UHGV virus genome: UHGV-1579991
Strand: one strand, 5' to 3'
DNA length: 64,000 nt
Source: a virus
The notes under the pieces: generated by a model
Databases searched by the model: none
The model's input: the letters and a program-made list of their open reading frames with translations, nothing else
What the model was told of the DNA's origin: nothing
In this document: positions 833 through 26,506 of the stretch, piece by piece
How the letters are laid out: every line of letters begins with the position of its first letter
How positions within the stretch are numbered: the first letter of the stretch is position 1
Made by a program: the position numbers and the translations under genes

Positions 833-1220
833 ATGAACAATACAATGAACTGGGGGGGGGACACAACAAGCCCTCCGAAGTAAGGCTGTGCAAGTAACAT
901 TTCTTGACTACAATGATGGCTATGAGACTTCATTTGAAACTATTGAAGTTCGTACAAACATGCGCACAATAGCAAATCTTATGAATGAATCTATGCCATT
1001 TGCACTAAAAGATAACGAATATGTCAAACAGTTTATCTTTGACATTTTCAATGGCAATGACAGCAGCAGTGTCGAAGTTACAATAACGTACAATGGCGAA
1101 ACAATATACACGGAAGACATACCGCCACAAGAAAGCTCGACATCATTACGTGCATATCTATCACTAAGACAAACAATCATAGGTGAAACGAATATGATTA
1201 GAGTTATTGAACACCTCTAA
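833..1220 (+). CDS. MNNTMNW-leader family protein B; leader and body are in different frames as sequenced (poly-G switch)
   Basis: Leader ORF MNNTMNWGGDTTSPPK* (ATG 833, stop 881-883). Body frame is open 849-1220 (track start is GTG at 888). Frames differ by +1 at the G9 run 852-860; one fewer G gives MNNTMNWGG-TQQALRSKAVQVTF... Confidence 0.5.
852..860 (+). repeat. homopolymeric tract G9 at leader/body junction of gene B
   Basis: Read directly from the sequence. Confidence 0.9.
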
Positions 1221-1276: not shown

Positions 1277-1616
1277 TCAATCAATGTAATTGAATGCGAC
1301 ATTGAAATTGGTGCTACTAAGTTTACGACTCATCTCTGCAGGTGATGGCGTTACGCCCATTAGCTGAAATTTGCATTTCATAGTTGAGTCTACTATTGCA
1401 GTAACTGTGGCGCTGCCAGTGTATTGTTCAGAACCAACGCCACTGCTAAATAGCTTAACTAATTTAGTTGCAAGCTTATTGTTGACATCATAGTACGTAA
1501 TGTTTGCTGAGCCCTGCTTTGTTGAATTACATGTCACATTGTACTTAGCAGTCTTGTACGCCGGTCCAGCTTGGAGGGCTTGTTGTGCCCCCCCCCCAGT
1601 TCATTGTGTTGTTCAT
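1277..1616 (-). CDS. MNNTMNW-leader family protein C; leader and body are in different frames as sequenced (poly-G switch)
   Basis: Leader ORF MNNTMNWGGGTTSPPSWTGVQDC* (ATG 1616, stop 1545-1547). Body frame is open 1277-1600 (track start is GTG at 1537). C10 run 1588-1597; one fewer G gives MNNTMNWGG-AQQALQAGPAYKTAKYNV... About 70 nt of 5' UTR plus leader is nearly identical to gene B. Confidence 0.5.
1588..1597 (-). repeat. homopolymeric tract, C10 on plus strand (G10 on coding strand), at leader/body junction of gene C
   Basis: Read directly from the sequence. Confidence 0.9.
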
Positions 1617-1640: not shown

Positions 1641-2337
1641 TTACGCATATTTAAGTGAGTTTTGAATTTCATAGACATGTATCATGCTTGACGTACCTGC
1701 AACAATTGCACTAAACGCATTCATCAAAGGCGCCACATAGTCTGACGCAACAAACTGCCATGGTTCACATGCTTGCAATGTGCCAGCTACACTGCCGCCA
1801 ATCGTGAACGCAGAATTCAATCTATTTGACGCCAATACTGCAGTAGCAGTTATTAAGTTATCACTAATCATAACTTCTGCATTGACTGATACTCGTCTTG
1901 TGAGATTTACAGAAGTTTCAATAGTGCCTGACAAAGAACCTGCACGTGAATTTGATATTGTCAATCTTGCAGAGTATAAGTCGGGGAAGTCTATATTCAA
2001 TGTCGTCCTGTTGCCATAAATGATAGTGAAACTATTTGATATTAGTGATGCATCAGCTTCGTTATTTGCATCAAGCAACGCAAAACTGTGCGGTCTTGTA
2101 GTATCACCAGCAAGTTCTTTGTATTTATTGCCACGTAGCACGAATGTCAAAGAGCCGTCTTCGAATGTAACGAAGTTTGCATTGTAGACATTACCAGTGT
2201 CTTCACAATATAGCCAAACTGGCAAGCCGCATACAGCATGGTCTGCGTTATCTGTAGCATACAATGTGATAATAGTGTCACGAAGAGCCCCCCGCGATTG
2301 ACTGCTGGCGTTCAAACCAGAGTTGAGTAGTTTTCAT
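1641..2337 (-). CDS. MKT-leader family protein D; leader and body are in different frames as sequenced (poly-G switch)
   Basis: Leader ORF MKTTQLWFERQQSIAGGSS* (ATG 2337, stop 2278-2280). Body frame is open 1641-2333 with no ATG (track start is TTG at 2315). C6 run 2288-2293; one fewer G gives ...QQSIAG-ALRDTIITLY... Confidence 0.5.
2288..2293 (-). repeat. homopolymeric tract, C6 on plus strand (G6 on coding strand), at leader/body junction of gene D
   Basis: Read directly from the sequence. Confidence 0.9.
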
Positions 2338-2406: not shown

Positions 2407-2435
2407 AAGAGCATCGGTTGAAAACCGATGCTCTT
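2407..2435 (-). terminator. rho-independent terminator-like hairpin downstream of the gene ending at 2460
   Basis: aagagcatcgg...ccgatgctctt, 11-13 bp stem; T-rich run follows on the minus strand. Confidence 0.6.
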
Positions 2436-2459: not shown

Positions 2460-3074
2460 CTATGATACAGTCCACGGGCAGTTTGCAGTAACCGTAACCG
2501 TAACAGCAGGAGTACCGGCCTGAGGAATCGTGATTTCCTGCTTGTCGAGTACCAGCGTCGGGTCACCAGCAGCCTGAACGATTGCAATCTGAGCAGTCTG
2601 AGCACCGTTGGCAGTTACCAAAATCGATGTCGTACGCTCGTCAATCGTCAAGTTGGCGGGAATATCAAGCTCAATGCTGAACGCAAACTCAGCGCTAGCA
2701 CCAGGGTCACCTGTAATTGCGACGCCATTGCCGGTTTCTGCACCAGCAACTGCGTACTTTGCAGGCAGCTCAATAACGAACTCGCCACCATCAACGATGC
2801 TGAATGCCAGCTTCGATGAGTTAGATACACCAGTTACGGTAAGAGTACCACCAGCCTTGGGAGCTGACATCTCTGAGCCGTTGTCAAATGACACGAACTC
2901 AGCCTTTGCAGTCTGCTGTACATTGTACGTTGAAGGCGCTGCAATACCAGCACCCTGAACGGTTACAACACCAGTACGTGCAACACGACCAGTGTGGGCG
3001 TCAGCAGAGTTGGAAATTGAACCATTACCCGAACCAGACGTCGGGGACAGTTTCAACCATGCGGGTTTAGCCAT
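2460..3074 (-). CDS. protein with Ig/BACON-like N-terminal domain (paralog 1 of 3), 204 aa
   Basis: N-terminus MAKPAWLKLSPTSGSGNGS...AHTGR is shared with the next two genes; the pattern resembles BACON/Ig-like domains (motif-level only). Confidence 0.7.
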   Translation of the reverse strand: MAKPAWLKLSPTSGSGNGSISNSADAHTGRVARTGVVTVQGAGIAAPSTYNVQQTAKAEFVSFDNGSEMSAPKAGGTLTVTGVSNSSKLAFSIVDGGEFVIELPAKYAVAGAETGNGVAITGDPGASAEFAFSIELDIPANLTIDERTTSILVTANGAQTAQIAIVQAAGDPTLVLDKQEITIPQAGTPAVTVTVTANCPWTVS

Positions 3075-3131
3075 TGTTCAAAATTGTTTATTAAGTGAGT
3101 GTATATGTTACAAAAATTCGATGATTGCTCA

Positions 3132-3731
3132 TCAAAGAATTTTCCAAGAAGCGTTTGATGTCAAATTCATTGTGATTGTCGTGCCATCATCATCAACTGT
3201 TACAGATTCTGTACTCAGCACAAGAGTTGCTGCAGCAGCTGCTTGAGTAATGCTAACATTCAATGATTTGCCACCAGGAGTTGTCACAGTCAATACAAAT
3301 GATTTCTGTTCAATTGTCAAATTTTGCGGCACTGTAACTTCAATTGACCAAGCAAACTTTGCAATATATCCTGGGTCATTTGCAATTGCAGCATCATTTG
3401 TTGCAGCAGTGCCATTTGCAGTGTACGCAGTCGGAATGTTAAGATTCGGATTTGCAGTTGCAAATTTTAGCTTTGCTGCATTAGACTCACCAGAAACGAC
3501 AATTTTTGTGGTGGCTGCAGTCACATTGTATGATGCTGTGCCAGATACAAATTCTGCAAGAGCAGCTTGGTTGATTGTTGCTTGCTTTGTAACTGTTGGT
3601 GTGGTCTTCGTTTGCACAGTCGCAATTGTGCTACGAATGCCTCTGCCGGTATGAGCTCCTGCAGTAAATGCCAGGATGTCATTGCCCTCACCAGACATCG
3701 GTGAACACTGTGCCCATATAGCTTTTGCCAT
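3132..3731 (-). CDS. protein with Ig/BACON-like N-terminal domain (paralog 2 of 3), 199 aa
   Basis: N-terminus MAKAIWAQCSPMSGEGND...AHTGR; C-terminus is Thr/Ala-rich and variable. Confidence 0.7.
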   Translation of the reverse strand: MAKAIWAQCSPMSGEGNDILAFTAGAHTGRGIRSTIATVQTKTTPTVTKQATINQAALAEFVSGTASYNVTAATTKIVVSGESNAAKLKFATANPNLNIPTAYTANGTAATNDAAIANDPGYIAKFAWSIEVTVPQNLTIEQKSFVLTVTTPGGKSLNVSITQAAAAATLVLSTESVTVDDDGTTITMNLTSNASWKIL

Positions 3732-3802
3732 TGTTACTGTGCAATTTTTAATTGTTTGACATATTATTTATATGCATTGCTTAAGCAATGTTGAATTGAC
3801 AT

Positions 3803-6800
3803 TTATCGAACAAGGAATGACGTACCAACAACCATATTTGGGATTGCCAAGCCATTGCCAGACTGGCTTACTGCAACTGTGCCACTTGTGTAACCTGACA
3901 ATGCTGCAGTAATTGTTGCCGACCTGCTGTTATCTGAACCCCAGTTATTTGCAGCGGACAATGTCGAACCACTGATTGTGAATGCGCCATTGTTCGATGA
4001 GTACGTTGGAGTAACCGCAGCATCTGATGTTGCAGACTGACCTGTCGTGTATGTTGTGACGGTTCGACCTGTCGTAGACAATGTTGCAGTGCCACCAGCA
4101 GCTCCAAAGCTTGTAACAGTTGAGCTAACAATCAGTGTCTTCGTAGTAGAAGTCACACTGTTGGCTTCCTGTGTAGCAGTGATTGCTTTTGAGCCAGTTT
4201 GACCATTCAACGCAACCGTCATATTGACTGTTGCAGTTCTTGCAGAACCAGCTGTTGTGCCACGATTTGCAGCAGTCAATGAACCTGTTGTACTACTGTT
4301 AAGTGTAAAGCCAGTAGTTGCAGCCATACTGTATGAAATCGTACCACCAGACGTAATAGTGGTTTTTGAACCACTTGTGTACGTTGCTGTCTGCGAATAT
4401 GCTGGCGTGCCTGTTGGAGTCTTTGTTGCACCTGCTGCAGCAAATGTTGCATATGATGTTGCTGTAGTAACTGTGACTGCACTGTATGATACACTGTTAG
4501 CTGCTTGATAAACATCAAGAGCTTTTGTAGCAGTCTTAGACCCTTCACCAGTAGCAGTTGCAGTCAAAGTGCCAATCTTTGTACGAGCTTTGACTGTAGT
4601 GCCAAGCGATGATGCGCTGACTTTTGTGCTATACGTAATGCTAACTGAGCCTGCCCTTGTGCTGCCAGACGTATATGTAATTGTCTGTGATGCACTGATG
4701 CCAGACATTGATGCGACTTCACCACCGCCAGCAGGAATATCTGATACAGAACCACCAGAGATTGTTACTGCGCCATATGTCGTAATTGCATTTGCAGCTT
4801 GGTACACATCTACTGCTTTTGTTCCAGATTTGCCATTGACTGTTACAGTAACAGTAGATGTTGTAATCTTTGTGCGAACTTTAGCAGTAGTGCCAAGCGA
4901 ACTACCAGACACTGCGCCAGTAGACGTTGTTACACCAGTGCCAGACCATGATTTGCTACCACCAGATGTAACTGTCTGTGTTGAGCCACTTGACCAAGTA
5001 ACTGACTGACTGAATGACACTGTAGGCGTAACTGAACCACCACCTGCAGGAATATCGCCATAAGTCATCGAAACTGTTGGCGTGCCATATGTAGCAGCAT
5101 TAGCATTTTGAGATGCAGTAGCAGTCTTTGTTCCACTGATAGTCTTTGTGCCTGCTGCGTTGTATGATGCAGTTGGCGTCCATGTAGCCTTTACAGTCTT
5201 TGTAACTGTTGGCGATGTAGTTGCGCCACTTGCAGTAGTGCCCTTTGATGATGCTGTTATAGCACCAGTAGATGCATTGAGTGCAGTGAACAATCCTGAT
5301 GCGCCTGGCCAGCTATATGATGTTGTAGTTGACAATGAACCATACGTAGATGCTGGCGCAGTAGTTGAAGTACTGCCACTACTAAAGTGGTATGTTACTG
5401 TGTTTGCACCATTTGACGGTGTAGATGTTCCGCCGCCTGCAGCAATTGCAGGATATGACATCGAACCAACTGCAATATTGAGTGCAGTCACATAGTTGCC
5501 TGCCTGATAAATCGTGGCAGACTTGCTGGCAGATTTGCCGTTCATTGTGACTTTAACAGTCAGTGTACCTGCAGTAGTCTGGTTAGATATTGTAGTACCC
5601 TTTGATTGCACAGTGACTGTCGATGTATACTCAATTGTTCCGCCGCTTGTCAGTGTTTCTGTCGTCTTTTCACCAGTAGCATATGTCGTAGTTTTGACCT
5701 GCGAGTAAGTTACTGTGCCAGATTTTACAGAACCGCCGCTTGCTGCAATGATAGTTGCAGACGGTGTCAAGTTAACTGTGATATCGCTATATGTAACTGT
5801 GCCGGCAGATTGAGCTGCTTGATAAACATCTGCAGCTTTTGATGCAGACTTACCATTGAGTGCTACTGTGACAGTCAATGTGCCAATCTTTGTTCGTGGC
5901 TTAACTGTTGTGCCAAGTGATGATGCAGTGATACCTGCTGCTGGACTGTATGAAATTGTTGCACCAGTAGTGATGTTCTGTGTTGAAGTTGATGTGTATG
6001 TTGCAGTCTGCGAATATGACACATTGCCGCTCTTAATTGTACCACCAGTTACAGGAATATCTGCTACAGTGAAGCTTGAAATTGTAACTGCGCCATATGA
6101 CACAGTGTTTGCAGCTTGCTTGACTGTGCAAGAACCAGTTTTTGTAACACCGCCCTCAGTGTATGAGCCGGAAATTGTAATGCTGCGTTCTGCGCCTACG
6201 ACTGTTGTGCGATTTGCTGCAGTTACTGTAGTAGTCGACAATGTAAAGCCAGTTGCTGAACCGCTAAGTGTTGCAGATACTGCAGCAGATGACGTTGAGC
6301 CTGATGCATATGTGTATGACGCTGTTGAAGTGATTGTAGTTGAACCGCCACCAGCTGCCAATGTTGCAGCGCCAGGTGTCAATGTCAAGCCATTCAGCGT
6401 CTTTGAGTTTGCAGTTTGTGTTGCAGTAGCAGTTTTTGTAGCAGATTTGCCATTGATTGCTACCGTAACTGTGACAGCATTTGAAGCATCAGTAGAGCCT
6501 ACATATGATGTGCCCATTGACGTTACAGTCAATGCGCCACTTGTTGTATTCAATGTCCAGCGTGACTTAGCAGTCATTGCATAAGACAATGTAGCGCCAC
6601 TTGTCAATGTGCCACCTGAGCCAGCTACACCATTCCAAGTCCAAACTTGTGAATATGAAACAGTTGGATTTGATGTACCACCAGCCGGAGCAATATTTGC
6701 ATATGAGAATGTTCCAATGACAGGCGTTTCATAGACTTTAACGCCTGCAGCTTGGTTGAACGTAATATCTTTTGATGCAGACTTGCCATTTGCAGTGACT

Positions 6801-8131
6801 GTCAAGGTAACAACAAATCCATTACGTGCAGCAGTAGAATTGTTGTTTGTCACTGTGACATTCAAGCCAGATAAGCTATAGCCTGTTACAGCAGTTTTAA
6901 CCACAGCAGTCCATGTGCCACCTGATGCATTACTATCAGTCGAGCCACTGCTATATGTCATTGACTGCGTAAATGTTGCAGATGCATTGACTGCAACAGT
7001 TTGACCTGCTACTGCAAGAGCAACTGGTGTTGTCTTTGTAATGACTGGCGTACCATACGTAATGCTGTTAGCAGCTTGTGTAATCGATACAGTAGCAGTT
7101 GCATTGCCATATGACGCTGTGCCACTAAATGACCGAGCATCACCGACAGTCTTGCCACGATTTGCAGATGTTACAGAATTTGCAGATATCGTAAATCCTG
7201 TTGCTGTGCCTGTAATTGTTGGCTTGACATTTGTTTCAGTAGATGTAACAACACCGTTCCATGTCACAGTGTACGTACCAGTGATGGTTGATGTTCCACC
7301 TGCTGCAGTATGACTTGTTGAATATGTGTTCAAAGCAAGCTTGTACACAACTGAACCAGCTGCTTGCGAGCATTTAACAGTCTTCGACAAACTATGACCA
7401 CTTACAGTCAATGTGGGCGTAACTGCTGCAGTTGATGCGTTGTTTGGCGTGTTAACTGTAATTGTTGCAGGACCTGTGCCAGATGCTTTTGAGACTGACC
7501 AACCTGCAGGTACACCCGAAATTGTCCATGCAAAGTCAGGATTACAAGAAATTGCGAATGTCTTCGATTCACCTTTTGCAACAAATGACAAAGTTTCTGG
7601 TGATACTGCCAATGTTGCACTTGCACCAGCTTGATTTACAGTGAATGTTGCAGATTTGCCACCAGGCGTTGACAATGTGAAAGTGAATGCCTTTGCAGCG
7701 ATTGCAGTATGTGCAGCAATCTGCACTCGTACAATGACTTCAAATTCTGCATTGACACCAGGGTCATTGTCAAAGTTTGTGTTGAGCGCATAATATTTGC
7801 CTGCAACAGTCACGCCAAGCACTGTGCCACTTGCAGTGCCGCCAGTACTGCCAAGCACAAGTTTTTGTGCATTTGTGACACATTTCAATGTTGCAATAGT
7901 GCCACCATTTGACGCAATGTTTGTAGATGCAACTGTAGCTCGTATAGTTTCACCAGGAGACTCTTGCAATACTGCACAGTTTTCAGTTACTACTGGTGAA
8001 CCTGTAGTTGTTTGTGCAGTAAAGCTGCCAGACCTGTTGTTTCGACCAGTATGCACAAATGCTTTGACAGACAACTGCGAGTTGCCTGTGCCAACATCAG
8101 GTGTAACTGTCAACCAAGTAGGCTTTGCCAT
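3803..8131 (-). CDS. large Thr/Ser/Gly-rich multi-repeat Ig-like protein (paralog 3 of 3), 1442 aa; likely virion surface, fibre or adhesin
   Basis: N-terminus MAKPTWLTVTPDVGTGNS...HTGR, followed by more than 10 repeats each ending in a x-Q-A-A-N type motif (VYQAAN, ITQAAN, VKQAAN, ATQTAN, TFNQAAG). Confidence 0.8.
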   Translation of the reverse strand: MAKPTWLTVTPDVGTGNSQLSVKAFVHTGRNNRSGSFTAQTTTGSPVVTENCAVLQESPGETIRATVASTNIASNGGTIATLKCVTNAQKLVLGSTGGTASGTVLGVTVAGKYYALNTNFDNDPGVNAEFEVIVRVQIAAHTAIAAKAFTFTLSTPGGKSATFTVNQAGASATLAVSPETLSFVAKGESKTFAISCNPDFAWTISGVPAGWSVSKASGTGPATITVNTPNNASTAAVTPTLTVSGHSLSKTVKCSQAAGSVVYKLALNTYSTSHTAAGGTSTITGTYTVTWNGVVTSTETNVKPTITGTATGFTISANSVTSANRGKTVGDARSFSGTASYGNATATVSITQAANSITYGTPVITKTTPVALAVAGQTVAVNASATFTQSMTYSSGSTDSNASGGTWTAVVKTAVTGYSLSGLNVTVTNNNSTAARNGFVVTLTVTANGKSASKDITFNQAAGVKVYETPVIGTFSYANIAPAGGTSNPTVSYSQVWTWNGVAGSGGTLTSGATLSYAMTAKSRWTLNTTSGALTVTSMGTSYVGSTDASNAVTVTVAINGKSATKTATATQTANSKTLNGLTLTPGAATLAAGGGSTTITSTASYTYASGSTSSAAVSATLSGSATGFTLSTTTVTAANRTTVVGAERSITISGSYTEGGVTKTGSCTVKQAANTVSYGAVTISSFTVADIPVTGGTIKSGNVSYSQTATYTSTSTQNITTGATISYSPAAGITASSLGTTVKPRTKIGTLTVTVALNGKSASKAADVYQAAQSAGTVTYSDITVNLTPSATIIAASGGSVKSGTVTYSQVKTTTYATGEKTTETLTSGGTIEYTSTVTVQSKGTTISNQTTAGTLTVKVTMNGKSASKSATIYQAGNYVTALNIAVGSMSYPAIAAGGGTSTPSNGANTVTYHFSSGSTSTTAPASTYGSLSTTTSYSWPGASGLFTALNASTGAITASSKGTTASGATTSPTVTKTVKATWTPTASYNAAGTKTISGTKTATASQNANAATYGTPTVSMTYGDIPAGGGSVTPTVSFSQSVTWSSGSTQTVTSGGSKSWSGTGVTTSTGAVSGSSLGTTAKVRTKITTSTVTVTVNGKSGTKAVDVYQAANAITTYGAVTISGGSVSDIPAGGGEVASMSGISASQTITYTSGSTRAGSVSITYSTKVSASSLGTTVKARTKIGTLTATATGEGSKTATKALDVYQAANSVSYSAVTVTTATSYATFAAAGATKTPTGTPAYSQTATYTSGSKTTITSGGTISYSMAATTGFTLNSSTTGSLTAANRGTTAGSARTATVNMTVALNGQTGSKAITATQEANSVTSTTKTLIVSSTVTSFGAAGGTATLSTTGRTVTTYTTGQSATSDAAVTPTYSSNNGAFTISGSTLSAANNWGSDNSRSATITAALSGYTSGTVAVSQSGNGLAIPNMVVGTSFLVR

Positions 8132-8186
8132 TTTATGTCGTTTTATTATTTTCTGTGATATTTACACACACAATGTAACCTGCATT

Positions 8187-10115
8187 TTATCGAACATGCC
8201 AAAGAGTGTTCGACTTCACATTTACAGAGCTCTTAAAGTTATTATGACTGCACAACCAAACATGTGACTTATCAAGTTCTACATAAGCATCTGACTTTAA
8301 GAATGCTTCAGAAGATTTGCTTGTCTGTTGCTTTGTCATTGATGCATCACCTACAAGCATTGCAGTCGAACCTTTGTACACTTGTTGTGCATCATCTGCA
8401 ATCAACGTAGCTTCAAATGGCTGTTGCTGCATAAGCAATGCAAGCGTAGACCTACATGCATCTTTGTCTACTCGTATATGTGTGATTTTGCCAGCAAAAC
8501 CATACAGCTGAACAATGTCTGAGTCATTTGACCAGTCATGCAAAATTGATGTAGACTTAACAACTTCTGTCAAGATTTGCATGTCATTGACTGCGGTCGA
8601 TGTTGACAAACTCAGTACAAGTTCAACGTCACCATTGTTAAGATTGCGTTGTCTAATGACTACGCCGTTCCAGCTCTTGCAAATCTTATCATCTACGCTT
8701 GCTAAGCTTTCGCCAGTTTTGACATCAAGCACATGTAACAAGCCAGATGACACTATAAGCATCAATCTGCCAAGTCGCATCAGTTGCCATGATGCTGCTT
8801 GAGCTTTTGCATTGTCTTCAAGCATAAACAAGCAACATGCAGACCAATCTGACACATCAAGTGATTTGACATACTCAACTGCGATGTCATTGCCAACAGC
8901 ATTCATATCATAAAACGCACCAGACACTGGCACATATTTGAATGACAGCGGTGATTCATTTACACTGACCGCTTTATGAACAAATCTGCGATTTGTCTCA
9001 TACATACTCAAGTCAACATGAGTATCATTAACAAACATATTGAGAGCGATGTCTTCAACTTGTTCGGTCGCAATTTTGTCTGCATCAAAAGCATCGAATG
9101 TTTTTGTGAGCTCGTCCAAATTAAGCATCTCTTTTACATCATCAGCAACTTGCATCTTAGACTCGTCACGATATTCAGGTCGATGCTCATATGACTTCAA
9201 TGTCAGCTCATAATATGGTGTCGATAACATAATGCCATCTGGATGCTGCACAGATGCGACTTCAAGCATTCGATTTGCTATTGGCACATAGCAATAATCG
9301 AATTGCTGTGGTTGTTTGCCAATGCCAAACACTCGTTCATATTCTGCTTTTGGCACATGAGCCGTTATACCTTGTTCAAAGTCAATGTCAAATGTGTCAT
9401 ATGTGACTTTGTTCGTGCTAAATTCATTGTCAACAACCATCAGCTTCAGCCACTTAACTGCACCAGTATGAATCAAGTCATATGCACGTAATGATGCTAC
9501 ACGATGCTCATCTGACACTTCATGGCTGAACCAGATAACAACATGACCAAGCTGACGATTCACAGCATTTACAATGTTGTCTTGCAATGCTATAGCATCT
9601 TGCATGTGCGTGTATGGATTGTACAAATGATTGTCTGACTCAATGACAATTGACGCATGTTTTGCTGGTGCAAAAATCTCGTCAGCATATGTGACATTGT
9701 CAACAGACTCTTCATTGACTTTGATGTCTTCAAGCACATATGAGTCATGACGAACATTTGCTGCATCTGTCCATTGCTTGCGCCATGCAACATCAACAAT
9801 CATAATGAACTTAACATGTACAGGCTCATCTGCAGTTGCATATGCAAGCACGAATTCATTCAAATGTGTTGCAGCATCGTACACAGAACCAGGTTCAGAC
9901 CATGTCTTGCCAGCATCTACAGACCATTTGAACTGCACATTGAGCATTGCACGACATTGCTCAGCATTATCAACAAGCTCAATATTATTCAATGAGCCTT
10001 TGATATCTGCAGCAAATTCAAGATACAGTGTAGAATCTTGTCTTACGATGATGCAATCGTCATCAGCCTTTTGTGACACTGACTGCTTTGTTGATTCGTT
10101 TGATGACTTTGCCAT
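8187..10115 (-). CDS. hypothetical protein, 642 aa (structural block)
   Basis: Long ORF co-directional with its neighbours; no motif recognised. Confidence 0.7.
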   Translation of the reverse strand: MAKSSNESTKQSVSQKADDDCIIVRQDSTLYLEFAADIKGSLNNIELVDNAEQCRAMLNVQFKWSVDAGKTWSEPGSVYDAATHLNEFVLAYATADEPVHVKFIMIVDVAWRKQWTDAANVRHDSYVLEDIKVNEESVDNVTYADEIFAPAKHASIVIESDNHLYNPYTHMQDAIALQDNIVNAVNRQLGHVVIWFSHEVSDEHRVASLRAYDLIHTGAVKWLKLMVVDNEFSTNKVTYDTFDIDFEQGITAHVPKAEYERVFGIGKQPQQFDYCYVPIANRMLEVASVQHPDGIMLSTPYYELTLKSYEHRPEYRDESKMQVADDVKEMLNLDELTKTFDAFDADKIATEQVEDIALNMFVNDTHVDLSMYETNRRFVHKAVSVNESPLSFKYVPVSGAFYDMNAVGNDIAVEYVKSLDVSDWSACCLFMLEDNAKAQAASWQLMRLGRLMLIVSSGLLHVLDVKTGESLASVDDKICKSWNGVVIRQRNLNNGDVELVLSLSTSTAVNDMQILTEVVKSTSILHDWSNDSDIVQLYGFAGKITHIRVDKDACRSTLALLMQQQPFEATLIADDAQQVYKGSTAMLVGDASMTKQQTSKSSEAFLKSDAYVELDKSHVWLCSHNNFKSSVNVKSNTLWHVR

Positions 10116-11613
10116 TGCGAGGATTTATAATTGCAAGTTCAATATCATAGTCGCCGATATGACGAAAATGATGTCTAAAAAGATATTTGTCAGATGTAGC
10201 TTCAATGACTCCACCAGATATTGCATTGCGATATGTGCATGTCCATTTGATGTCATGCGGAGCATAAGCATATGACAGCTCATCTGGGAAGCAGCACACT
10301 TGACTCCCAACTGTCACAGTTGCGCCATTGTCAATCTTGCAGAACCTTGTGTCATTTGGTCTACGTTGCACTGCATAGTGATGCTGACATTCAAACATGT
10401 CTGATTTGATTGACAAAGTTTGCCAAGGTGATTCAACAAGATACCGAGGTTTTTGAGACTCTTCACTTACAAGTTTACAATGCAGCCCAAGATTTTTAAG
10501 CTCTTCAACAAGTTGAGTGTTTGCAATGTGTAGGGTGTAGTGTTTGTCATTTGTGTGTATTTCCACATCATACTCAGTAGTGTCAACGACATCTGCAATG
10601 ATTGTCGCAGGCCAGTTGCCAGTCAGCTCAAAATCATCAAATGCAAAATGCAAGTCGGTGTTAACATGCAATTGTGCTCTGCTCATAGGCTCTTTGCTGT
10701 ACGCATACAATGCCCATTGCATTGAATTGTCAAGCATCTGAATTTCTTGCACAGACCATGTAAACTTTGCAAATTGTGAATCTGCATGCAATTCACAGTA
10801 GTCATTGATTTGCTTAAGCAAGTCTTTAACATCTGCATATGCAATGTTGACTTCATCTGCGTCAACTTGAACGCCATCGACATCGACAAACTCAGACATC
10901 GACATTGCAAATGTGCCAGCATCTTCAATATCAATTTGCATGTTCAGATATGTTGAGCCGTACTGCAACAATCGCATGCAATCAGAATCAATAAGTTTGA
11001 TGTCATTCAAATGGTCAAGCCATAGAACATTTGATTGCACCTTGTCAAGATTGTAGAGCCATTTTATGATTGAGTCGTCTTTTTTGACATTTTCTGGGTC
11101 AAATACGTTAGGGTCTGGGTAGCTCATGAAATCTGGCACACCCAATGCTTTGCGTGTGCTATAGTACAATGTAGCATTGTTCATGCCTGCAATGTCAATT
11201 GACTCATCAGGCTCTTGAAGCTTTGCAGCAATTTGAGACAATGAATTGCCAGCATATGACTGCTCAAGTGAATGTAGTTTGTTGTCTGCAATAGCAATGA
11301 CGAAGTTTGCTTGCAATTCTACGATGTTCAGTGTGCGTTTGAACACTTGCACTTGACCATAGCAATCTTTGAGAGTCAACACAAGTTCATATGCACCTGC
11401 AGTTGTTATGCCAAGCTTAAGATGCTGTTGAACATCAAGATACGTTCTGTCAAACACAAGCTTGCCAGATTCATCATAGATTTCATATGTAGCTTCTCTG
11501 CAATTTTGTATAAGCGCAGATAAGTCTGCGTCTTTTGATGACCATGCTGCAATTGAAATGTCTATAATTGCTACATTGTCTCTATAAAAAAGCCCTATAG
11601 GTTGTGGATTCAT
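10063..11613 (-). CDS. hypothetical protein, 516 aa (structural block)
   Basis: Long ORF; its 3' end overlaps the next gene's start by about 50 nt. Confidence 0.7.
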   Translation of the reverse strand: MNPQPIGLFYRDNVAIIDISIAAWSSKDADLSALIQNCREATYEIYDESGKLVFDRTYLDVQQHLKLGITTAGAYELVLTLKDCYGQVQVFKRTLNIVELQANFVIAIADNKLHSLEQSYAGNSLSQIAAKLQEPDESIDIAGMNNATLYYSTRKALGVPDFMSYPDPNVFDPENVKKDDSIIKWLYNLDKVQSNVLWLDHLNDIKLIDSDCMRLLQYGSTYLNMQIDIEDAGTFAMSMSEFVDVDGVQVDADEVNIAYADVKDLLKQINDYCELHADSQFAKFTWSVQEIQMLDNSMQWALYAYSKEPMSRAQLHVNTDLHFAFDDFELTGNWPATIIADVVDTTEYDVEIHTNDKHYTLHIANTQLVEELKNLGLHCKLVSEESQKPRYLVESPWQTLSIKSDMFECQHHYAVQRRPNDTRFCKIDNGATVTVGSQVCCFPDELSYAYAPHDIKWTCTYRNAISGGVIEATSDKYLFRHHFRHIGDYDIELAIINPRNGKVIKRINKAVSVTKG

Positions 11614-12077: not shown

Positions 12078-13427
12078 TCATTCTGCGATTTCCCAGATTC
12101 GTGTTCGTTTGTTTGCTATGCTTCGTACTATAGCATTGTCACCTATGCGAACATCCCATGCTCGATTTGATGTCAATGTGATATTCTTTGTGCCACCAGG
12201 CTGTTCAAATGACAAGTTTGCTTTGTCAAGTTCAAGCAATGGGGCCAAGTCCATGCTTTGGTCAATAAGCCAATCAAAGTACTCAGCGTCAATTTGCGAC
12301 GTGTCAATGTCTGCTTCAGTGACTACAAAAATGTCATTAAGCTTGTTTGGTCTAACAGTGTCACCAATTGGCTCAAATGCAGTGCTTGGCAGAAGCATTG
12401 TATGTGGACGAATGTAAATGATGTCTTCATCTACAAATGCATTCATATCTTTGACGACAATTTGTGCTGCAGGAGTGTATGGCTTTGACGTTACAATTTC
12501 TGCATTGTCTAAGCCATACAAGTATCGAGCCGTGTATGATGCAAAAACATCAATGCTGACATCTGCAAAATGAATGTGCTCTGGCAAAAATACATCTTCA
12601 AGAATCATGACAAGATACTGCAGCTTCAGCAACAAATCTTGATTGTCTGCCATGTTCTTGACAAATTCAGGCATGCCACAGTTCAGATATTTGCCAGATG
12701 CTTCATTGTATTCATAAGTCAGTTGCAGCAAATTTGTGCGCTTATACATGCCTGCGTATGGTGAAATGTCATCTTGCAATGGCAGCAATGTTCTGTTGTT
12801 GCCATCAAGTGATTTGAGCACTTCATAGATGCGAACAGCTTCACTGTAGCCAAGCCAGTCTAATGCAGCATGCAACCCATTGTATGTGCCAAGCTTGCTG
12901 TCAATATCATCTCGTCGTATAAGCCACTCTCTTGCTTTGCTATTCTGCAATATGAAGTCAACGACATCTTGTCGAATGTCATTCAGCATCAATGCTTTGT
13001 TGTAGTACTCAAGATAGTCATGACCCATATTAGACATCATGACAAGCAAGCGTTCATCTGCGTCAACGACTGTAGCAGTCACATTGACATGCAATGCAAT
13101 GCCATCAACGACAACTTCAATTGCACAAACGTTATTGCCAACATCAACAGCATTGAATATGATGTTTGCAATCATGTCATCGTTGACAAGATGTCGAGTG
13201 GTCTTATCTACAAGCAGCAATTCATTGTTATCGTCAACCATAAAGAAACTCAATGCAGACGATAGCAATCTGACTGTGCATTCAACATTGTCTGAAAACA
13301 ATGATGCAATGTTATATGTGCCCTTTGACACATTGCCAAGCTCTATGTTAGCACCGTCATAGATGCGCTTGCCGAATCTGTCAAAAATGTTTATTGCAGC
13401 CATGTTACAGTTTCTTATCAATGTCAA
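12078..13427 (-). CDS. hypothetical protein, 449 aa
   Basis: Long ORF; no motif recognised. Confidence 0.7.
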   Translation of the reverse strand: MTLIRNCNMAAINIFDRFGKRIYDGANIELGNVSKGTYNIASLFSDNVECTVRLLSSALSFFMVDDNNELLLVDKTTRHLVNDDMIANIIFNAVDVGNNVCAIEVVVDGIALHVNVTATVVDADERLLVMMSNMGHDYLEYYNKALMLNDIRQDVVDFILQNSKAREWLIRRDDIDSKLGTYNGLHAALDWLGYSEAVRIYEVLKSLDGNNRTLLPLQDDISPYAGMYKRTNLLQLTYEYNEASGKYLNCGMPEFVKNMADNQDLLLKLQYLVMILEDVFLPEHIHFADVSIDVFASYTARYLYGLDNAEIVTSKPYTPAAQIVVKDMNAFVDEDIIYIRPHTMLLPSTAFEPIGDTVRPNKLNDIFVVTEADIDTSQIDAEYFDWLIDQSMDLAPLLELDKANLSFEQPGGTKNITLTSNRAWDVRIGDNAIVRSIANKRTRIWEIAE

Positions 13428-13666: not shown

Positions 13667-15277
13667 TCAACATTCTACATACGAGCCATCAGTGTTTTCA
13701 ACAAGCACTTTGATGCTCAAGCCCACATCTGTGCCTTGCTGACTTCTTATCAATGGCACAATGTTTTTTGATCGTGGTGCAATGTTGCCCATATTGTCAA
13801 TGTGCACGTCATTGCCAATGAACTGCACATCTACTGATTTGATGACATCAAGCTCTTCAAGTTTTGCGATTGCAGCAGAACGACTAACGAATGTCGATGC
13901 ATTTGACCATGAGTCTTCTACAAATGCTTTTGCAGCATCAAGTAATTGTTGCTTGACGTCTTCTATATTTTGCAGTACTGCAGTCTTTTTGACAAGAATG
14001 AGCATCTGATAAAATTCAAGTTGCACAGTGTCAAATTGCACATCAGTTAGCAGCACATAGTCACCAGTGTTTTCAATAGCATTGTTCAGATATTGTCTAT
14101 CTATAGAGTCAATCGTAAATTCTGCTATTGGCAATGACCAGTAGTCATACACTATTGAGCCCGCTTTGACATACTTGTCTGCAATGTTAGGCACCAACAC
14201 GACATGAATTGTCTGAGTCTCTGTATTTGACCAGACATCAAGTATCTTGTACTGACCAAAACGTGACATGAATGCTCTGATTGAATCTGCTGAGTGCAAC
14301 ACAAGTGCCCTGTTAATTGAGCCTGCATGTGAACGTATAGATTCGATGTCTTCACCATTGTAACCACCTACAATGTCTGTCAGCTGTTCAATGACTAATA
14401 CACCCTTTGGACTTACTGCAGTAGTGTTTGCATCATACATACCATTGACCCATTCAAATGTTGCATCATTGTCAATCAAAATGTTTCCTGCATAGCCCTC
14501 ACATGCAGTGTATTCTACATTGACGACTGCATTTTGTGCAGGAATTTGACCAGCAGTGCCATTGCCAAACACAATCTGTAGTTTGCCATCATATGACCAG
14601 CGTTCAATGTATCCCTTGCTGTATCGGTCCATTTCATCAAACCCTGCATAGCGAGTCCACAGTTCATTACCAACTGTGACAGTCAATGAATCTTCAGATA
14701 CAATCAAGTTGCGTTCTTCGATAGTGAATGTTGTCATTGACTCACCATCAGAAATATATTGCTGAGACTTGCGTTCACCTTGTCTGACTGCGAATTCATA
14801 TCGTACACCTGTCAACTCATTGTTGATGTTGAGTTGCGCAAAGTCTTGATGTATATCGATGTAGTACATCAATGAGTTCTCTTTGCATTTAATTGCTGCG
14901 TATCGTTTAATGAACACAGTTGGACCAAGCTCTTTGACTGCGTCATATGAAAAACTCAATGCAATTTTGCCTGATGCTGCAATGCCACCAACGCATTTGT
15001 AACATGCAAGCTGCGCAAGGCCTCGTACAGATGCAGTTTGTTCTGCAGTAAGCAAGTTGTTTTCTTTTGTGCCTACTACAATTTGCGTAAAGATGAGTGA
15101 CGCAAGTTCTCTGAAACTCTGAACAAGAATTCCAAAAATTGTGTACTTACCATATTGTTTCTTTGTAGAGTTCAGCAAATTCTGCAGCCAAGTATCTATA
15201 GACTGTGACACACCTGAATATGACATTTGCATTTTCTGCATCCATGTCATATTGTCACGAGTGTTATTTGTGCGCAT
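13667..15277 (-). CDS. hypothetical protein, about 537 aa; start trimmed
   Basis: Track ORF 13667-15400 reads through the terminator hairpin and tandem repeats; start moved to the first ATG after the repeats (15277). Start is uncertain. Confidence 0.65.
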   Translation of the reverse strand: MRTNNTRDNMTWMQKMQMSYSGVSQSIDTWLQNLLNSTKKQYGKYTIFGILVQSFRELASLIFTQIVVGTKENNLLTAEQTASVRGLAQLACYKCVGGIAASGKIALSFSYDAVKELGPTVFIKRYAAIKCKENSLMYYIDIHQDFAQLNINNELTGVRYEFAVRQGERKSQQYISDGESMTTFTIEERNLIVSEDSLTVTVGNELWTRYAGFDEMDRYSKGYIERWSYDGKLQIVFGNGTAGQIPAQNAVVNVEYTACEGYAGNILIDNDATFEWVNGMYDANTTAVSPKGVLVIEQLTDIVGGYNGEDIESIRSHAGSINRALVLHSADSIRAFMSRFGQYKILDVWSNTETQTIHVVLVPNIADKYVKAGSIVYDYWSLPIAEFTIDSIDRQYLNNAIENTGDYVLLTDVQFDTVQLEFYQMLILVKKTAVLQNIEDVKQQLLDAAKAFVEDSWSNASTFVSRSAAIAKLEELDVIKSVDVQFIGNDVHIDNMGNIAPRSKNIVPLIRSQQGTDVGLSIKVLVENTDGSYVEC

Positions 15278-15304
15278 ATCAGTTAATTTGTTTGTATATG
15301 TATT

Positions 15305-15377
15305 CGAATGTGCACACATGAGAATAGGTCTCTTCGAATGTGCACATATGAGAATAGTCTCTTCGAATATGCGCACA
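15305..15377. repeat. tandem direct repeat, about 30-bp unit x 2.5 (cgaatgtgcacacatgagaataggtctctt)
   Basis: Read directly from the sequence; lies between a terminator hairpin and the next gene start. Confidence 0.7.
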
Positions 15378-15381
15378 AAAA

Positions 15382-15407
15382 GAAGAGCTTGCATATGCAA
15401 GCTCTTC
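15382..15407 (-). terminator. perfect palindromic hairpin (gaagagcttgcat/atgcaagctcttc) downstream of the gene ending at 15450
   Basis: About 12-bp stem; T-run follows on the minus strand. Confidence 0.55.
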
Positions 15408-26000: not shown

Positions 26001-26506
26001 AATTGCCACCATTGTGCATCATCTGATGACGCGTCATACCAGTACACTTTGCCATCTGGTGCAATGACCCAGTCTGCGTATGACAAAGCGTCTGTATGCA
26101 AAATGTTGCAAAACGCAGGTTTGTTTGCATCTGAACAGAACTCATTGAATGCTGCAGCATCGACAACTTTTGCAGTACCTGCGTCATTTTGCGTAGCTGA
26201 CCAATCACTGCCAAATGTTGCATTGATATCAGCAAGTGATGCATACATAATGCGGTTGCCTCGATAGCCATCGAAGCCAGGCAAACCACGGTCACCAGTT
26301 TCACCAATACGCCCCTTAAATAGGGGTGAATTCACTATACGTGAAAAGTTATAGTTGAGCGCCTCGATAAGCGCTGGGTACGAATCAACTTGTAACTTTT
26401 TCAGTACAATTGGCTGTGCTTTATGTTCTGCAGACATATTGTTCAGATATTTTGCTTTGTATATGTATTCGAGACTTTGTTGAGAATCGTCTGTCACTAT
26501 GTGCAT
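23099..26506 (-). CDS. fibre-like protein, 1135 aa: short collagen-like Gly-X-Y stretch plus C-terminal Ig-like repeats
   Basis: GRIGETGDRGLPGFDGYRGN near the N-terminus; 4-5 C-terminal repeats ending in TQAAK/TQAAQ, the same inter-domain motif as the 1442-aa protein. Confidence 0.7.
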   Translation of the reverse strand: MHIVTDDSQQSLEYIYKAKYLNNMSAEHKAQPIVLKKLQVDSYPALIEALNYNFSRIVNSPLFKGRIGETGDRGLPGFDGYRGNRIMYASLADINATFGSDWSATQNDAGTAKVVDAAAFNEFCSDANKPAFCNILHTDALSYADWVIAPDGKVYWYDASSDDAQWWQFTGLQLLTSDNDNLNVIITQIIEELIKTKYGGTIKSYAAMFNIAADGQPGAEIDNNYSNKHTGALSIGLESVPRYNNVDSSVILLAPSDTQIDGLGNANNKAAKPVVQILGNPYYYYDLTQRTLNRLDADKKNQLPGLDAFPHMLLQNDFNSGLVFGFASDDSHVKSFADLATLWQSYEGIRLRNHFTSAVNELDILSYANLKYDELFLAKGLDAESKRESFIRAYKFAQLINQSYRIAALSDAGVVTDILTLTKQLLKLAATVDLQLMKLPGASVLGTDATGKVVDMLLSIFKSSDNWSSIIIDGANANKHLPTASAVKKLFNSIFDNFDAHLFECQYKHVFIDGSNHLAAGVGASNTVLAYDGSGRLTEEAKKSAFNKDFAGSGYASTVSHSDHTHAEYAHKDDLTPPVYVESFDDHVPGTTAMQTLVPLPAYLNMPATVDILLDITVPFIVYGNGYASVKVDLSYRPVSGGAATQIDADKPSTCAVLPACLTSIDTAKTWSELQDACNELHYQAILRNVASSGVWPIYVIATPTFGGSANAVIFEPRVIASVVQYSTGASTRPEIIVTSSMSLNAAGGSSEITYQIRNGYAGAAVTAYATESWIHNVQVADGKITFDYDKTLQTSARTANIVLQYPTADNVAVLLTQAAKEATVINAEPLTINAAANGGSFTVNFNISNPIEGETLTVAAEGSGFVGEPAVNMSAGTIQFALDINTATATRNLYLRLSYMTADNVTVSITQAAQGVSTIIVEPMTAQLKSTDTQAQFEITVGNPIAGQQLSYAVLDNDGAFIDTNFEYDDNTGKGYLTIECDRNLTTEQRSCSVKFSHINAQDVTAQVIQAAKGVTTINITPASATTDDTAKTLSFNYEIINPIDGESLTAVIVGNPGWLHDITITPSKTTPAIGEISIQVDELSYSDIDAFSRVAAFKCSYNTAQDVSVEVTQELHGIGSMIIEDISKPFIVR

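What the first reader, a model, noticed from the sequence alone, without database searches (positions are those of the whole stretch)
2460..8131. Three consecutive genes share an Ig/BACON-like N-terminal domain but have unrelated C-terminal regions
The proteins (204, 199 and 1442 aa) all begin MAK(P/A)xW...SG.GN...HTGR, then diverge. The 1442-aa protein is a Thr/Ser/Gly-rich array of more than 10 Ig-like repeats with a recurring x-Q-A-A-N boundary motif, and the same TQAA motif reappears in the 1135-aa fibre-like protein at 23099-26506. Together with the adjacent poly-G cassette this makes 0.25-8.1 kb look like a modular surface or host-interaction region with a shared anchor domain and exchangeable distal domains.
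Basis: partly seen in the sequence, partly recalled or inferred. Interest (0 to 1): 0.6.

Follow-up and report, generated by a model that had tools for sequence, protein, structure and literature searches.

The report
Split BACON-domain phage fibre proteins
Three neighbouring genes of a large human-gut phage encode surface proteins built on a BACON (Ig-like) domain that is cut in two, with the halves at opposite ends of each protein; this suggests the proteins snap onto each other and onto the phage neck by completing each other's half-domains.

Summary
The similarity covers the whole ~205 aa of both small proteins and the first 205 aa of the large one. It is not limited to 60 N-terminal residues, and the C-termini are not unrelated.

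The shared module has three parts: the last ~55 aa of a BACON beta-sandwich (the "plug"), an Ig-like middle domain, and the first ~35 aa of a BACON (the "socket"). Joining the C-end to the N-start in silico restores a full-length Pfam viral BACON match.

The gene just upstream encodes a 642-aa protein related to annotated phage neck proteins, and it ends in an orphan socket. In about 100 related loci from several phage lineages the order is the same: a gene ending in a socket, then the 200-aa gene, then a gene starting with a plug. Natural fusion proteins carry an intact BACON across exactly these junctions.

My best reading (confidence 0.6) is that the half-domains complement each other in trans. 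This would dock modular fibres onto the virion.

BACON-bearing phage fibres are already known. I found no description of the split architecture.

The 11 further repeats of the 1442-aa protein are real, but I could not show that they are BACON domains. Virion location is untested.

The parts
2460..3074 (-). Gene for the 204-aa protein: the bare module. It consists of a plug (aa 1-56, DNA 2907-3074), a middle Ig-like domain (aa 57-168, 2571-2906) and a socket (aa 169-204, 2463-2570).
   Evidence: Pfam BACON PF13004 matches aa 4-54 at E 2.4e-10 and 40.6 bits, above the gathering score of 25. The circularly rejoined sequence matches BACON_2 PF19190 positions 8-92 of 94 at 34.3 bits, versus positions 42-92 at 20 bits for the native order. 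AF2 gives pLDDT 94.7 and pTM 0.79. There are 624 homologous clusters, nearly all 201-205 aa.
3132..3731 (-). Gene for the 199-aa paralogue with the same three-part module: plug aa 1-57, middle domain aa 58-165, socket aa 166-199.
   Evidence: BLASTP against the 204-aa protein gives 37% identity over the full length, E 7e-37. My half-domain HMMs hit the N-end (E 6e-22), the middle (1e-34) and the C-end (5e-14). There is no Pfam hit on its own.
3803..8131 (-). Gene for the 1442-aa fibre-like protein. It consists of a plug (aa 1-57, 7961-8131), a middle domain (aa 58-168, 7628-7960), one complete BACON-like domain (aa 169-258, 7358-7627), 11 repeats of ~100 aa (aa 259-1425, 3857-7357) and a C-terminal tail GNGLAIPNMVVGTSFLVR (3806-3856).
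   Evidence: BLASTP of aa 1-205 against both small proteins. Repeat boundaries and pairwise repeat similarity. A 98%-identical protein, P0121, lies on 176-kb human-gut contigs.
8187..10115 (-). Gene for the 642-aa neck-like (T4 gp14-type) protein. Its last ~34 aa (8190-8291, ...AYVELDKSHVWLCSHNNFKSSVNVKSNTLWHVR-stop) form an orphan socket directly upstream of the 1442-aa gene.
   Evidence: A socket HMM built only from other phages' upstream genes hits this C-terminus at E 7.5e-10 among 1879 ORFs. The core (aa 163-385) matches annotated neck proteins of Tenacibaculum phage PTm1 (E 2e-14) and Chryseobacterium phage MA9V-2 (1e-13). Pfam T4_neck-protein matches 6 of 10 family members, best E 8.7e-6. 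PHROG 'head closure Hc2' matches at 4.5e-5. In the AF2 model residues 563-642 have pLDDT below 50, so the socket is not packed in cis, but the model is poor.
12150..12242 (-). A second socket-like motif (LELDKANLSFEQPGGTKNITLTSNRAWDVR) near the C-end of the 449-aa baseplate-adjacent protein (gene 12078-13427), followed by 22 more residues.
   Evidence: The C-half HMM hits at E 8.7e-6 among the window ORFs. The sequence is shown.
2407..2435 (-). Intrinsic-terminator-like hairpin (13-bp stem followed by a T-run) just after the 204-aa gene. It marks the end of the transcription unit.
   Evidence: the sequence is shown.
3075..3131 (-). AT-rich intergenic spacer between the 199-aa and 204-aa genes. 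The spacers 3732-3802 and 8132-8186 are alike. They show that the genes are translated separately.
   Evidence: Each spacer holds several stop codons and an A-rich leader before ATGGC. The spacers are 57, 71 and 55 nt, so two of the three junctions change reading frame.

Best explanation
The three genes encode paralogous virion-surface proteins of a ~176-kb myovirus of gut Bacteroidales with a T4-type terminase. All three share a ~205-aa module in which a BACON beta-sandwich is circularly permuted, or split. The protein starts with the last four strands of a BACON (the plug, from the conserved W through G.GN...R to ...Q). It continues with an Ig-like middle domain. It ends, three residues after a conserved SNxxW, with the first strands of a BACON (the socket).

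I propose that plug and socket from different polypeptides complement each other in trans to form one complete BACON domain, so that the proteins are chained head-to-tail without covalent bonds. In this phage the 642-aa neck-like protein, and possibly the 449-aa protein, offers orphan sockets. The 1442-aa protein plugs in and projects a string of about 12 Ig-like beads. It would act as a whisker or fibre that probably binds glycans. The 199-aa and 204-aa proteins carry both a plug and a socket, so they could serve as adaptors, extenders or caps.

Shown: the paralogy, the permuted half-domains at exact termini, the conserved gene order and the natural fusions. Inferred: physical trans-complementation, attachment at the neck and glycan binding.
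For: 1. Half-domains sit at the termini. The in-silico rejoined C-end plus N-start restores a full-length Pfam BACON_2 match: positions 2-92 of 94 at 42 bits for the family consensus, 34 bits for the 204-aa protein and 33 bits for the 1442-aa protein, all above the gathering score of 25. W-to-W spacing across the junction (WTVS|MAKPAW) equals that in the intact BACON of the 1442-aa protein (WTISGVPAGW).

2. Orphan halves exist. The 642-aa protein has only a socket. Most plug-bearing large homologues have no socket after the middle domain. Among 120 large homologues, 29 start with a plug, 17 end in a socket and 8 have both.

3. Gene order is conserved. In 80 IMG/VR loci, 159 of 160 socket hits lie within 8 aa of a stop codon, and 159 of 160 plug hits have a Met within 12 aa upstream. 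157 of 159 terminal sockets are followed within 120 nt by a plug start on the same strand. The same X-socket, module, Y-plug triad occurs in crAss-like phage cr111_1, in 82-kb and 92-kb phages and in Bacteroidales MAG contigs, at family identity down to about 40%.

4. Natural fusions support the pairing (the Rosetta-stone argument). P0256, P0294 and P0285 are tandem modules with a complete BACON_2 (positions 2-92/93, 30-40 bits) spanning the socket-plug junction. P0323 is an X-module fusion. P0130 has a fibre anchor followed by an intact BACON where the 63-aa L006 protein stops half-way. A chimera of two adjacent gene products (L010 182-aa C-end plus P0163 N-start) gives BACON_2 positions 4-93 at 34 bits.

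5. The fold and context fit. The AF2 model of the 204-aa protein is confident and Ig-like. The genes lie beside baseplate and neck genes.
Against: There is no structural or biochemical proof of trans pairing. I could not run a multimer prediction or inspect coordinates or PAE.

The confident AF2 monomer (pLDDT 94.7, pTM 0.79) fits self-closure of the small proteins equally well. BFVD monomer models of relatives have the same compact shape (TM 0.85).

Some family members are solitary, without neighbouring X or Y genes (csAssE-Sib).

Socket-like motifs also occur internally (P0247-249) and at an N-terminus (L011 510-aa protein). The motif may therefore be an autonomous element.

The number of sockets and plugs per genome is not balanced.

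The X-type sockets match Pfam BACON_2 only over their last 10-20 residues.

The IMG/VR loci are highly redundant, so the counts overstate the number of independent observations.

The neck assignment rests on sub-threshold Pfam/PHROG hits plus depositors' annotations. The AF2 model of the 642-aa protein is poor (pLDDT 57).

Virion presence is untested.
Confidence: 0.6

Rival explanations
1. Intramolecular circular permutation only. Each ~200-aa protein closes on itself, with its own N- and C-terminal halves forming one BACON next to the middle domain. It then acts as an independent decoration or adhesin protein. Orphan halves in other proteins pack on neighbouring domains or stay disordered. 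The conserved gene order merely reflects a common fibre operon.
For: The AF2 monomer is confident and compact (pLDDT 94.7, pTM 0.79). Independent BFVD monomer models of relatives superpose over their full length (TM 0.85 and 0.78). Solitary family genes exist in some phages.
Against: This does not explain why genes ending in an orphan socket and genes starting with an orphan plug flank the module in nearly all loci. It does not explain why large fibres carry a plug with no cis socket. It does not explain why natural fusions place socket and plug of successive modules together in one intact BACON. Monomer predictors routinely close domain-swapped assemblies.
Confidence: 0.25
2. A complete ~60-aa Ig/BACON anchor domain is shared by three proteins that otherwise carry unrelated, exchangeable distal domains (a cassette exchange region).
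For: The shared N-terminus is real. Pfam's short BACON model (61 positions) is almost fully covered by aa 4-54. Large homologues combine this N-terminus with very different lengths and C-termini.
Against: The two small proteins are homologous end to end, and homologous to aa 1-205 of the large one. The N-terminal segment covers only positions 42-92 of the 94-position structural BACON_2 model, so it is not a whole sandwich.
Confidence: 0.08
3. Artefact. One long fibre gene is broken by stop-codon recoding, a frameshift, an intron or an assembly error, so the split domains are really continuous.
For: Stop-codon recoding is common in gut phages (my own knowledge). The breaks always fall inside a domain. 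The 199-aa and 204-aa genes are in the same frame.
Against: The spacers are 55, 71 and 57 nt. They contain several stops in all frames, and two of the three junctions change frame. Upstream gaps in other loci are 22-37 nt and also out of frame. Every downstream gene starts with a conserved ATG-GCx-AAA after an A-rich leader. More than 600 clusters end at exactly the same residue. The spacers are too short for introns.
Confidence: 0.02
4. Non-structural 'moron' proteins, for example secreted or host-surface glycan-binding proteins expressed from the phage that are not part of the virion.
For: Relatives were annotated as 'lipocalin-like / secreted protein / cellulase'. They sometimes lie outside structural modules (cr111_1 near lysis genes, csAssE-Sib among replication genes).
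Against: The N-terminus MAKPxW carries no signal peptide or lipobox. In this phage and in L010/L011 the genes lie inside the baseplate/neck block and are co-oriented with it. The partner socket is on a neck-like structural protein.
Confidence: 0.05

Closest known systems
BACON-domain proteins of crAss-like and other gut phages (de Jonge et al. 2019, PMC6949934; Pfam PF13004 and PF19190)
   Same: They share the domain signature (W, N, R, Q), the gut Bacteroidales phage setting and horizontal spread among unrelated phage lineages. Large multi-domain ORFs lie next to tail genes and small single-domain ORFs next to head or structural genes. A role in binding host or mucin glycans is hypothesised for both.
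   Different: In those proteins the domains are described as contiguous units in tandem. Here the BACON is permuted or split so that its halves sit at protein termini and across gene borders. Most of the 1442-aa protein consists of a different ~100-aa repeat that I could not show to be BACON. The phage is a 176-kb T4-type myovirus, not a crass-like phage.
Donor-strand complementation/exchange in chaperone-usher pili and strand exchange in Bacteroidia type V pili (my own knowledge)
   Different: In those pili a single strand is donated. Here roughly half of the sandwich (about 3 plus 4 strands) would be contributed by each partner. No chaperone, usher or protease is evident. The partners are heterologous phage structural proteins. 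None of this has been shown experimentally.
T4 neck/whisker system (gp13, gp14, fibritin wac) and Ig-like decoration fibres such as T4 Hoc (PMC10385173)
   Same: Fibres are attached at the neck of a T4-type phage, with baseplate, fibre and neck genes adjacent. As in Hoc, a string of Ig-like domains projects from the particle.
   Different: There is no sequence similarity to fibritin (a trimeric coiled coil) or to Hoc's capsid-binding domain. Attachment would be through a split beta-sandwich. The neck proteins of the nearest cultured relatives (PTm1) lack the socket.

Membership tests
BACON domain (Pfam PF13004 BACON / PF19190 viral BACON_2) | Match to the family HMM above the gathering score | tested here: met
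   The 204-aa protein matches PF13004 at 40.6 bits (gathering score 25), aa 4-54. The 1442-aa protein scores only 15.4 bits and the 199-aa protein has no hit natively. After rejoining the C-end to the N-start, BACON_2 scores 34.3 bits (204-aa) and 32.7 bits (1442-aa plug plus aa 169-205), with no hit for the 199-aa protein.
BACON domain (Pfam PF13004 BACON / PF19190 viral BACON_2) | The four conserved residues named by de Jonge et al. (N-terminal W, central N and R, C-terminal Q) | tested here: met
   W6 is nearly invariant. N17, R30/R33 and Q54 are invariant in 56 sequences that include all three window proteins.
BACON domain (Pfam PF13004 BACON / PF19190 viral BACON_2) | One contiguous ~90-aa beta-sandwich | tested here: not met
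Tail-associated BACON tandem-repeat proteins of gut phages (de Jonge 2019) | Several BACON domains in tandem within one ORF | tested here: inconclusive
   The 1442-aa protein has one half and one complete BACON-like domain. Its 11 further repeats relate to that domain only weakly (BLASTP E 5e-4 in a 12-sequence set). They do not relate to it at profile level (hhalign probability 0.9%), and they have no Pfam hit.
Tail-associated BACON tandem-repeat proteins of gut phages (de Jonge 2019) | Location next to tail or tail-fibre genes | tested here: met
   A baseplate wedge gene (phrog_219, E 3e-22) lies at 13667-15400, a tape-measure-like gene at 30346-34068 and the neck-like gene at 8187-10115, all on the same strand.
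T4 gp14-type neck protein (assignment of the upstream 642-aa protein) | Match to PF11649 or to characterised neck proteins | tested here: inconclusive
   PF11649 scores 15.9 bits, E 0.0082, below the gathering score of 25. It matches 6 of 10 homologues, best E 8.7e-6. tblastn to annotated 'neck protein' of phages PTm1, PTm5 and MA9V-2 gives E 1e-13 to 2e-14. There is no PDB relative by sequence, and the AF2 model is too poor for a fold search.
Donor-strand-complemented Ig-like polymers (pilus-type assembly) | An incomplete Ig fold in one chain physically completed by another chain | not testable with these tools
   There is only indirect support: orphan halves, conserved adjacency and natural fusions. 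No multimer prediction or coordinates were available.
Hoc-like capsid decoration proteins | A capsid-binding domain plus Ig-like domains, and presence on the capsid | not tested
   Pfam, PHROGs and PDB gave no Hoc-like match. No virion data exist.

The most novel reading that the evidence does not exclude
Gut Bacteroidales phages of several unrelated lineages (crAss-like podoviruses, 30-90-kb phages and this 176-kb T4-type myovirus) build their fibres from separate polypeptides joined by a natural split Ig-like domain. A ~35-aa socket at the end of (or inside) one structural protein and a ~55-aa plug at the start of the next fold together into one BACON sandwich. The 200-aa module would act as a universal adaptor. 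This would be a portable plug-and-socket system that lets phages swap or stack receptor-binding parts without recombining inside genes.
Probability: 0.55. Interest if true: 0.85.

Novelty: new variant of a known kind. Interest (0 to 1): 0.7.

Why it matters
If trans-complementation is real, it is a new way for phage fibres to be assembled and exchanged. It would explain why BACON-coding segments move horizontally between unrelated gut phages. It would give rules for predicting which fibre parts fit which virion, which bears on host range. It would also offer a natural, genetically encodable split-Ig docking pair for phage engineering and protein assembly.

The family is large. A profile search of 1.84 billion cluster representatives found 2370 with E <= 1e-10. 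It occurs in very abundant gut phages, yet none of these proteins has an assigned function or a solved structure.

If only cis closure is true, the finding reduces to a circularly permuted BACON in an ordinary decoration protein.

Tried and rejected
- **Megablast of 12 kb against INPHARED:** no match.
- **PHROGs on the three proteins:** nothing useful.
- **PDB sequence searches** with the family profile and with the 642-aa protein and its profile: nothing.
- **Homology between the 1135-aa and 1442-aa proteins:** rejected (E 3.1).
- **The 11 repeats as BACON domains:** not supported by hhalign or Pfam.
- **Read-through, recoding, frameshift or intron** as the cause of the split: rejected from spacer sequences and reading frames.
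- **AF2 of the 642-aa protein:** gave a poor model (pLDDT 57). I ran no fold search on it and use only the low confidence of its C-terminus.
- **Y-type plug HMM in the window:** no further plug-bearing gene found. A terminator, not a plug gene, follows the 204-aa gene.
- **Pfam on X-socket plus plug chimeras:** gave only partial extension into the socket for the commonest X type.
- **Neck protein of the cultured relative PTm1:** has no socket.
- **Literature searches** for split, permuted or domain-swapped BACON, or for strand complementation in phage fibres: nothing relevant found. The library is incomplete.
Full report
**Observation.** The window carries three consecutive minus-strand ORFs at 2460-3074 (204 aa), 3132-3731 (199 aa) and 3803-8131 (1442 aa).
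- All three begin MAK(P/A)xW...G.GN...HTGR.
- The similarity does not stop after 60 residues. The two small proteins align end to end (37% identity, E 7e-37). Both align to residues 1-205 of the large protein (E 4e-12 and 3e-18).
- The claim of unrelated C-terminal regions is therefore wrong for the two small proteins. The large protein is the same ~205-aa module plus ~1240 further residues.
- The spacers between the genes (57, 71 and 55 nt) are AT-rich. They hold several stops and are followed by A-rich leaders and ATG-GCx-AAA. A strong terminator-like hairpin follows the last gene. These are separately translated genes at the end of one transcription unit.

**Genomic setting.**
- The window belongs to a large tailed phage. 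It carries a T4-type large terminase, closest to the 213-kb Chryseobacterium phage MA9V-1 at 40.6% identity.
- It also carries a tape-measure-like protein, a gp6-type baseplate wedge protein, an NAD-dependent DNA ligase and a topoisomerase II.
- No cultured or deposited phage is close at the DNA level.
- Nearly identical genomes of 175-177 kb occur in human gut metagenomes, with the same three genes in the same order.
- Relatives of the 200-aa protein in genome bins come almost only from Bacteroidales.

**Anatomy of the shared module.**
- Pfam's short BACON model matches residues 4-54 of the 204-aa protein above threshold (40.6 bits). The 94-position viral BACON_2 model is matched only over its positions 42-92.
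- An alignment of 56 family members shows that every member ends at the same place...SNxxW(T/S)(V/I)x-stop.
- When the last ~36 residues are placed in front of the first ~56 in silico, BACON_2 is matched nearly end to end. The match covers positions 2-92 at 42 bits for the consensus, 8-92 at 34 bits for the 204-aa protein, and 2-79 at 33 bits for the 1442-aa plug plus residues 169-205.
- The W-to-W distance across this artificial junction (WTVS|MAKPAW) is the same as in the intact BACON-like domain of the 1442-aa protein (WTISGVPAGW).
- The module is therefore the second part of a BACON sandwich ('plug'), an Ig-like middle domain with a conserved GDPGA motif, and the first part of a BACON sandwich ('socket').
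- Foldseek finds full-length structural twins among uncharacterised proteins of uncultured gut phages. No relative has a solved structure.

**The large protein.**
- After the module's socket, the chain continues with its own second half, which gives a complete BACON-like domain (aa 169-258).
- Eleven repeats of 96-132 aa follow. It is the last-strand signature shared with BACON.
- A profile of the repeats does not match a profile of the BACON (hhalign probability 0.9%), and Pfam sees nothing. Calling them Ig-like is plausible, but I did not test it structurally.
- The protein ends in a short tail, GNGLAIPNMVVGTSFLVR. This resembles the tails of homologues (...GIGxMV(I/V)GSTFxVF) and of the 1135-aa protein at 23099-26506 (...GIGSMIIEDISKPFIVR).
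- Otherwise the 1135-aa protein is not similar (E 3.1).

**Orphan halves and gene order.**
- The gene immediately upstream (8187-10115) encodes a 642-aa protein that ends ...YVELDKSHVWLCSHNNFKSSVNVKSNTLWHVR-stop.
- An HMM built only from the C-termini of genes that precede the 200-aa gene in other phages hits this C-terminus at E 7.5e-10 among 1879 ORFs.
- The 449-aa protein at 12078-13427 has a similar motif near its end.
- I surveyed 80 IMG/VR loci holding the 200-aa gene. 159 of 160 socket hits lie within 8 residues of a stop codon, and 159 of 160 plug hits have a methionine within 12 residues upstream. 157 of 159 terminal sockets are followed within 120 nt by a plug start on the same strand. 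77 ORFs have only a socket, 78 only a plug and 82 both.
- These loci are redundant, but the same triad recurs in clearly different backgrounds. The triad is a gene ending in a socket, then the 200-aa module, then a gene starting with a plug. It occurs in:
  - a 92-kb crAss-like contig and an 82-kb myovirus-like contig;
  - the deposited Steigviridae genome cr111_1;
  - a 101-kb phage in which a 182-aa protein ending in a socket precedes a 1170-aa fibre that starts with a plug and ends in a socket;
  - a 153-kb relative of the window phage;
  - ten of eleven divergent Bacteroidales contigs, at family identity down to ~40%.
- Among 120 large homologues of the 1442-aa protein, 29 start with a plug, 17 end in a socket and 8 have both. 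Most plug-bearing ones have no socket after the middle domain.

**Natural fusions.** A profile search of 1.84 billion cluster representatives found 2370 relatives at E <= 1e-10. Four kinds of fusion are informative.
- Tandem modules in one chain (P0256, P0294, P0285). In these a complete BACON_2 (positions 2-92/93, 30-40 bits) spans the socket of module 1 and the plug of module 2.
- An X-type protein fused to the module (P0323).
- The P0130 type of fibre. It carries the N-terminal fibre anchor followed by an intact BACON. In phage L006 a 63-aa protein with the same anchor stops half-way through that domain (E 8e-5).
- A chimera of two adjacent gene products (L010 182-aa C-end plus P0163 N-start). 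It scores as one BACON_2 over positions 4-93 (34 bits).

By the Rosetta-stone argument, these fusions indicate that socket and plug of separate proteins belong together.

**Mechanism proposed.**
- The best-supported reading is that a BACON sandwich is reconstituted from two polypeptides. A socket on one structural protein receives the plug of the next.
- In this phage the socket donor next to the fibre gene is the 642-aa protein. Its core matches proteins annotated as neck proteins in phages PTm1/PTm5 and MA9V-2 (E 1e-13 to 2e-14). It also matches, below threshold, the T4 gp14 family.
- The 1442-aa protein would then be a neck- or baseplate-attached whisker of about 12 Ig-like beads.
- The 199-aa and 204-aa proteins carry both elements, so they could extend, branch or cap such chains.
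- The neck protein of the cultured relative PTm1 lacks the socket. The socket therefore appears to be an acquisition of the gut lineage.
- Some homologues of the 642-aa protein carry two extra internal copies of the socket motif. This fits a portable docking peptide.
- Glycan binding by the Ig-like array is inferred only from what is proposed for BACON and Ig-like phage domains (PMC6949934, PMC9853417). Those papers also note that the BACON of BoGH5A bound no tested substrate.

**What remains uncertain.**
- I could not run a multimer prediction or see coordinates. Trans pairing is therefore inferred, not shown.
- The confident monomer model fits self-closure of the small proteins equally well. 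Some family members are solitary.
- The AF2 model of the 642-aa protein is poor (pLDDT 57). Its socket region is unconfident (below 50), which is weak support at best.
- Read-through, recoding, frameshift and introns are excluded by the spacer sequences and frames.
- No virion proteomics exist for any member.

**Comparison with what is known.**
- BACON domains in gut phages are described. They occur as tandem arrays next to tail genes and as single-domain ORFs next to head genes, and they spread horizontally (de Jonge et al. 2019). The locus is a member of that kind.
- I found no description of the permuted or split arrangement, of the conserved socket/module/plug gene order, or of the fusions.
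- The nearest mechanistic analogy is donor-strand complementation in pili. There, however, a single strand is donated, and a chaperone or protease is involved.

**Verdict.** This is a new variant of a known kind, with a testable and potentially general assembly principle.

Noticed in passing
window 852-860 (+), 1588-1597 (-), 2288-2293 (-): There are homopolymeric G tracts (G9, G10, G6) at the 5' ends of small ORFs just downstream of the BACON gene cluster; 5 overlapping G8 matches were found against 0.01 expected. The G6 tract lies 44 nt after an ATG (2337-2335) that is out of frame with the 224-aa ORF 1641-2315. The tract is G6 in the window and L013 but G7 in four near-identical genomes (L001-L003, L012). 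The other long tracts shift position between genomes. This looks like slipped-strand phase variation, or homopolymer sequencing error.
   Followed up: partly
window 3806-3856 and 23102-23161 (both -): The 1442-aa and 1135-aa proteins, otherwise dissimilar, end in a similar ~17-aa tail (G(I/L)xxxM(V/I)(V/I)....F.VR). The tail is also present as ...GIGxMV(I/V)GSTFxVF in many large homologues (P0134, P0141 and others). It may be a second, C-terminal docking peptide.
   Followed up: partly
P0247-P0249 (homologues of the 642-aa protein); L011 3405-4937: Socket-like motifs also occur as two extra internal copies in some neck-protein homologues, and at the very N-terminus of a 510-aa baseplate-adjacent protein (MLKLDKDHIDLTPENNFTDIINIISDEDWYI...). 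The motif is therefore portable and not restricted to C-termini.
   Followed up: partly
window 35445-36719 (-): A 424-aa ORF with a weak homing-endonuclease PHROG hit (phrog_3339, E 1e-5) lies directly beside the oppositely oriented large terminase gene (36779-38770).
   Followed up: no
window 10063-10115: The 516-aa gene (10063-11613) overlaps the start of the 642-aa neck-like gene (8187-10115) by 53 nt. The true start of the 642-aa gene may lie further downstream.
   Followed up: no
L004 9687-9986; L017-type loci: The small X proteins (75-150 aa) that precede the module in the 30-90-kb phages have N-terminal parts made of short beta-type repeats (for example ATVKGQNTCISATIVIQPLITATVSIVKEPIKAHITLLNPVINAHISPV). 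Longer X proteins carry AY(S/N)xAY repeats before the socket. These may be fibre stalks.
   Followed up: no
L101 (Vibrio olivae contig) and L096 (Acutalibacteraceae MAG): Two relatives of the 200-aa module lie on contigs assigned to non-Bacteroidota genomes. This may reflect binning contamination or a wider host range.
   Followed up: no
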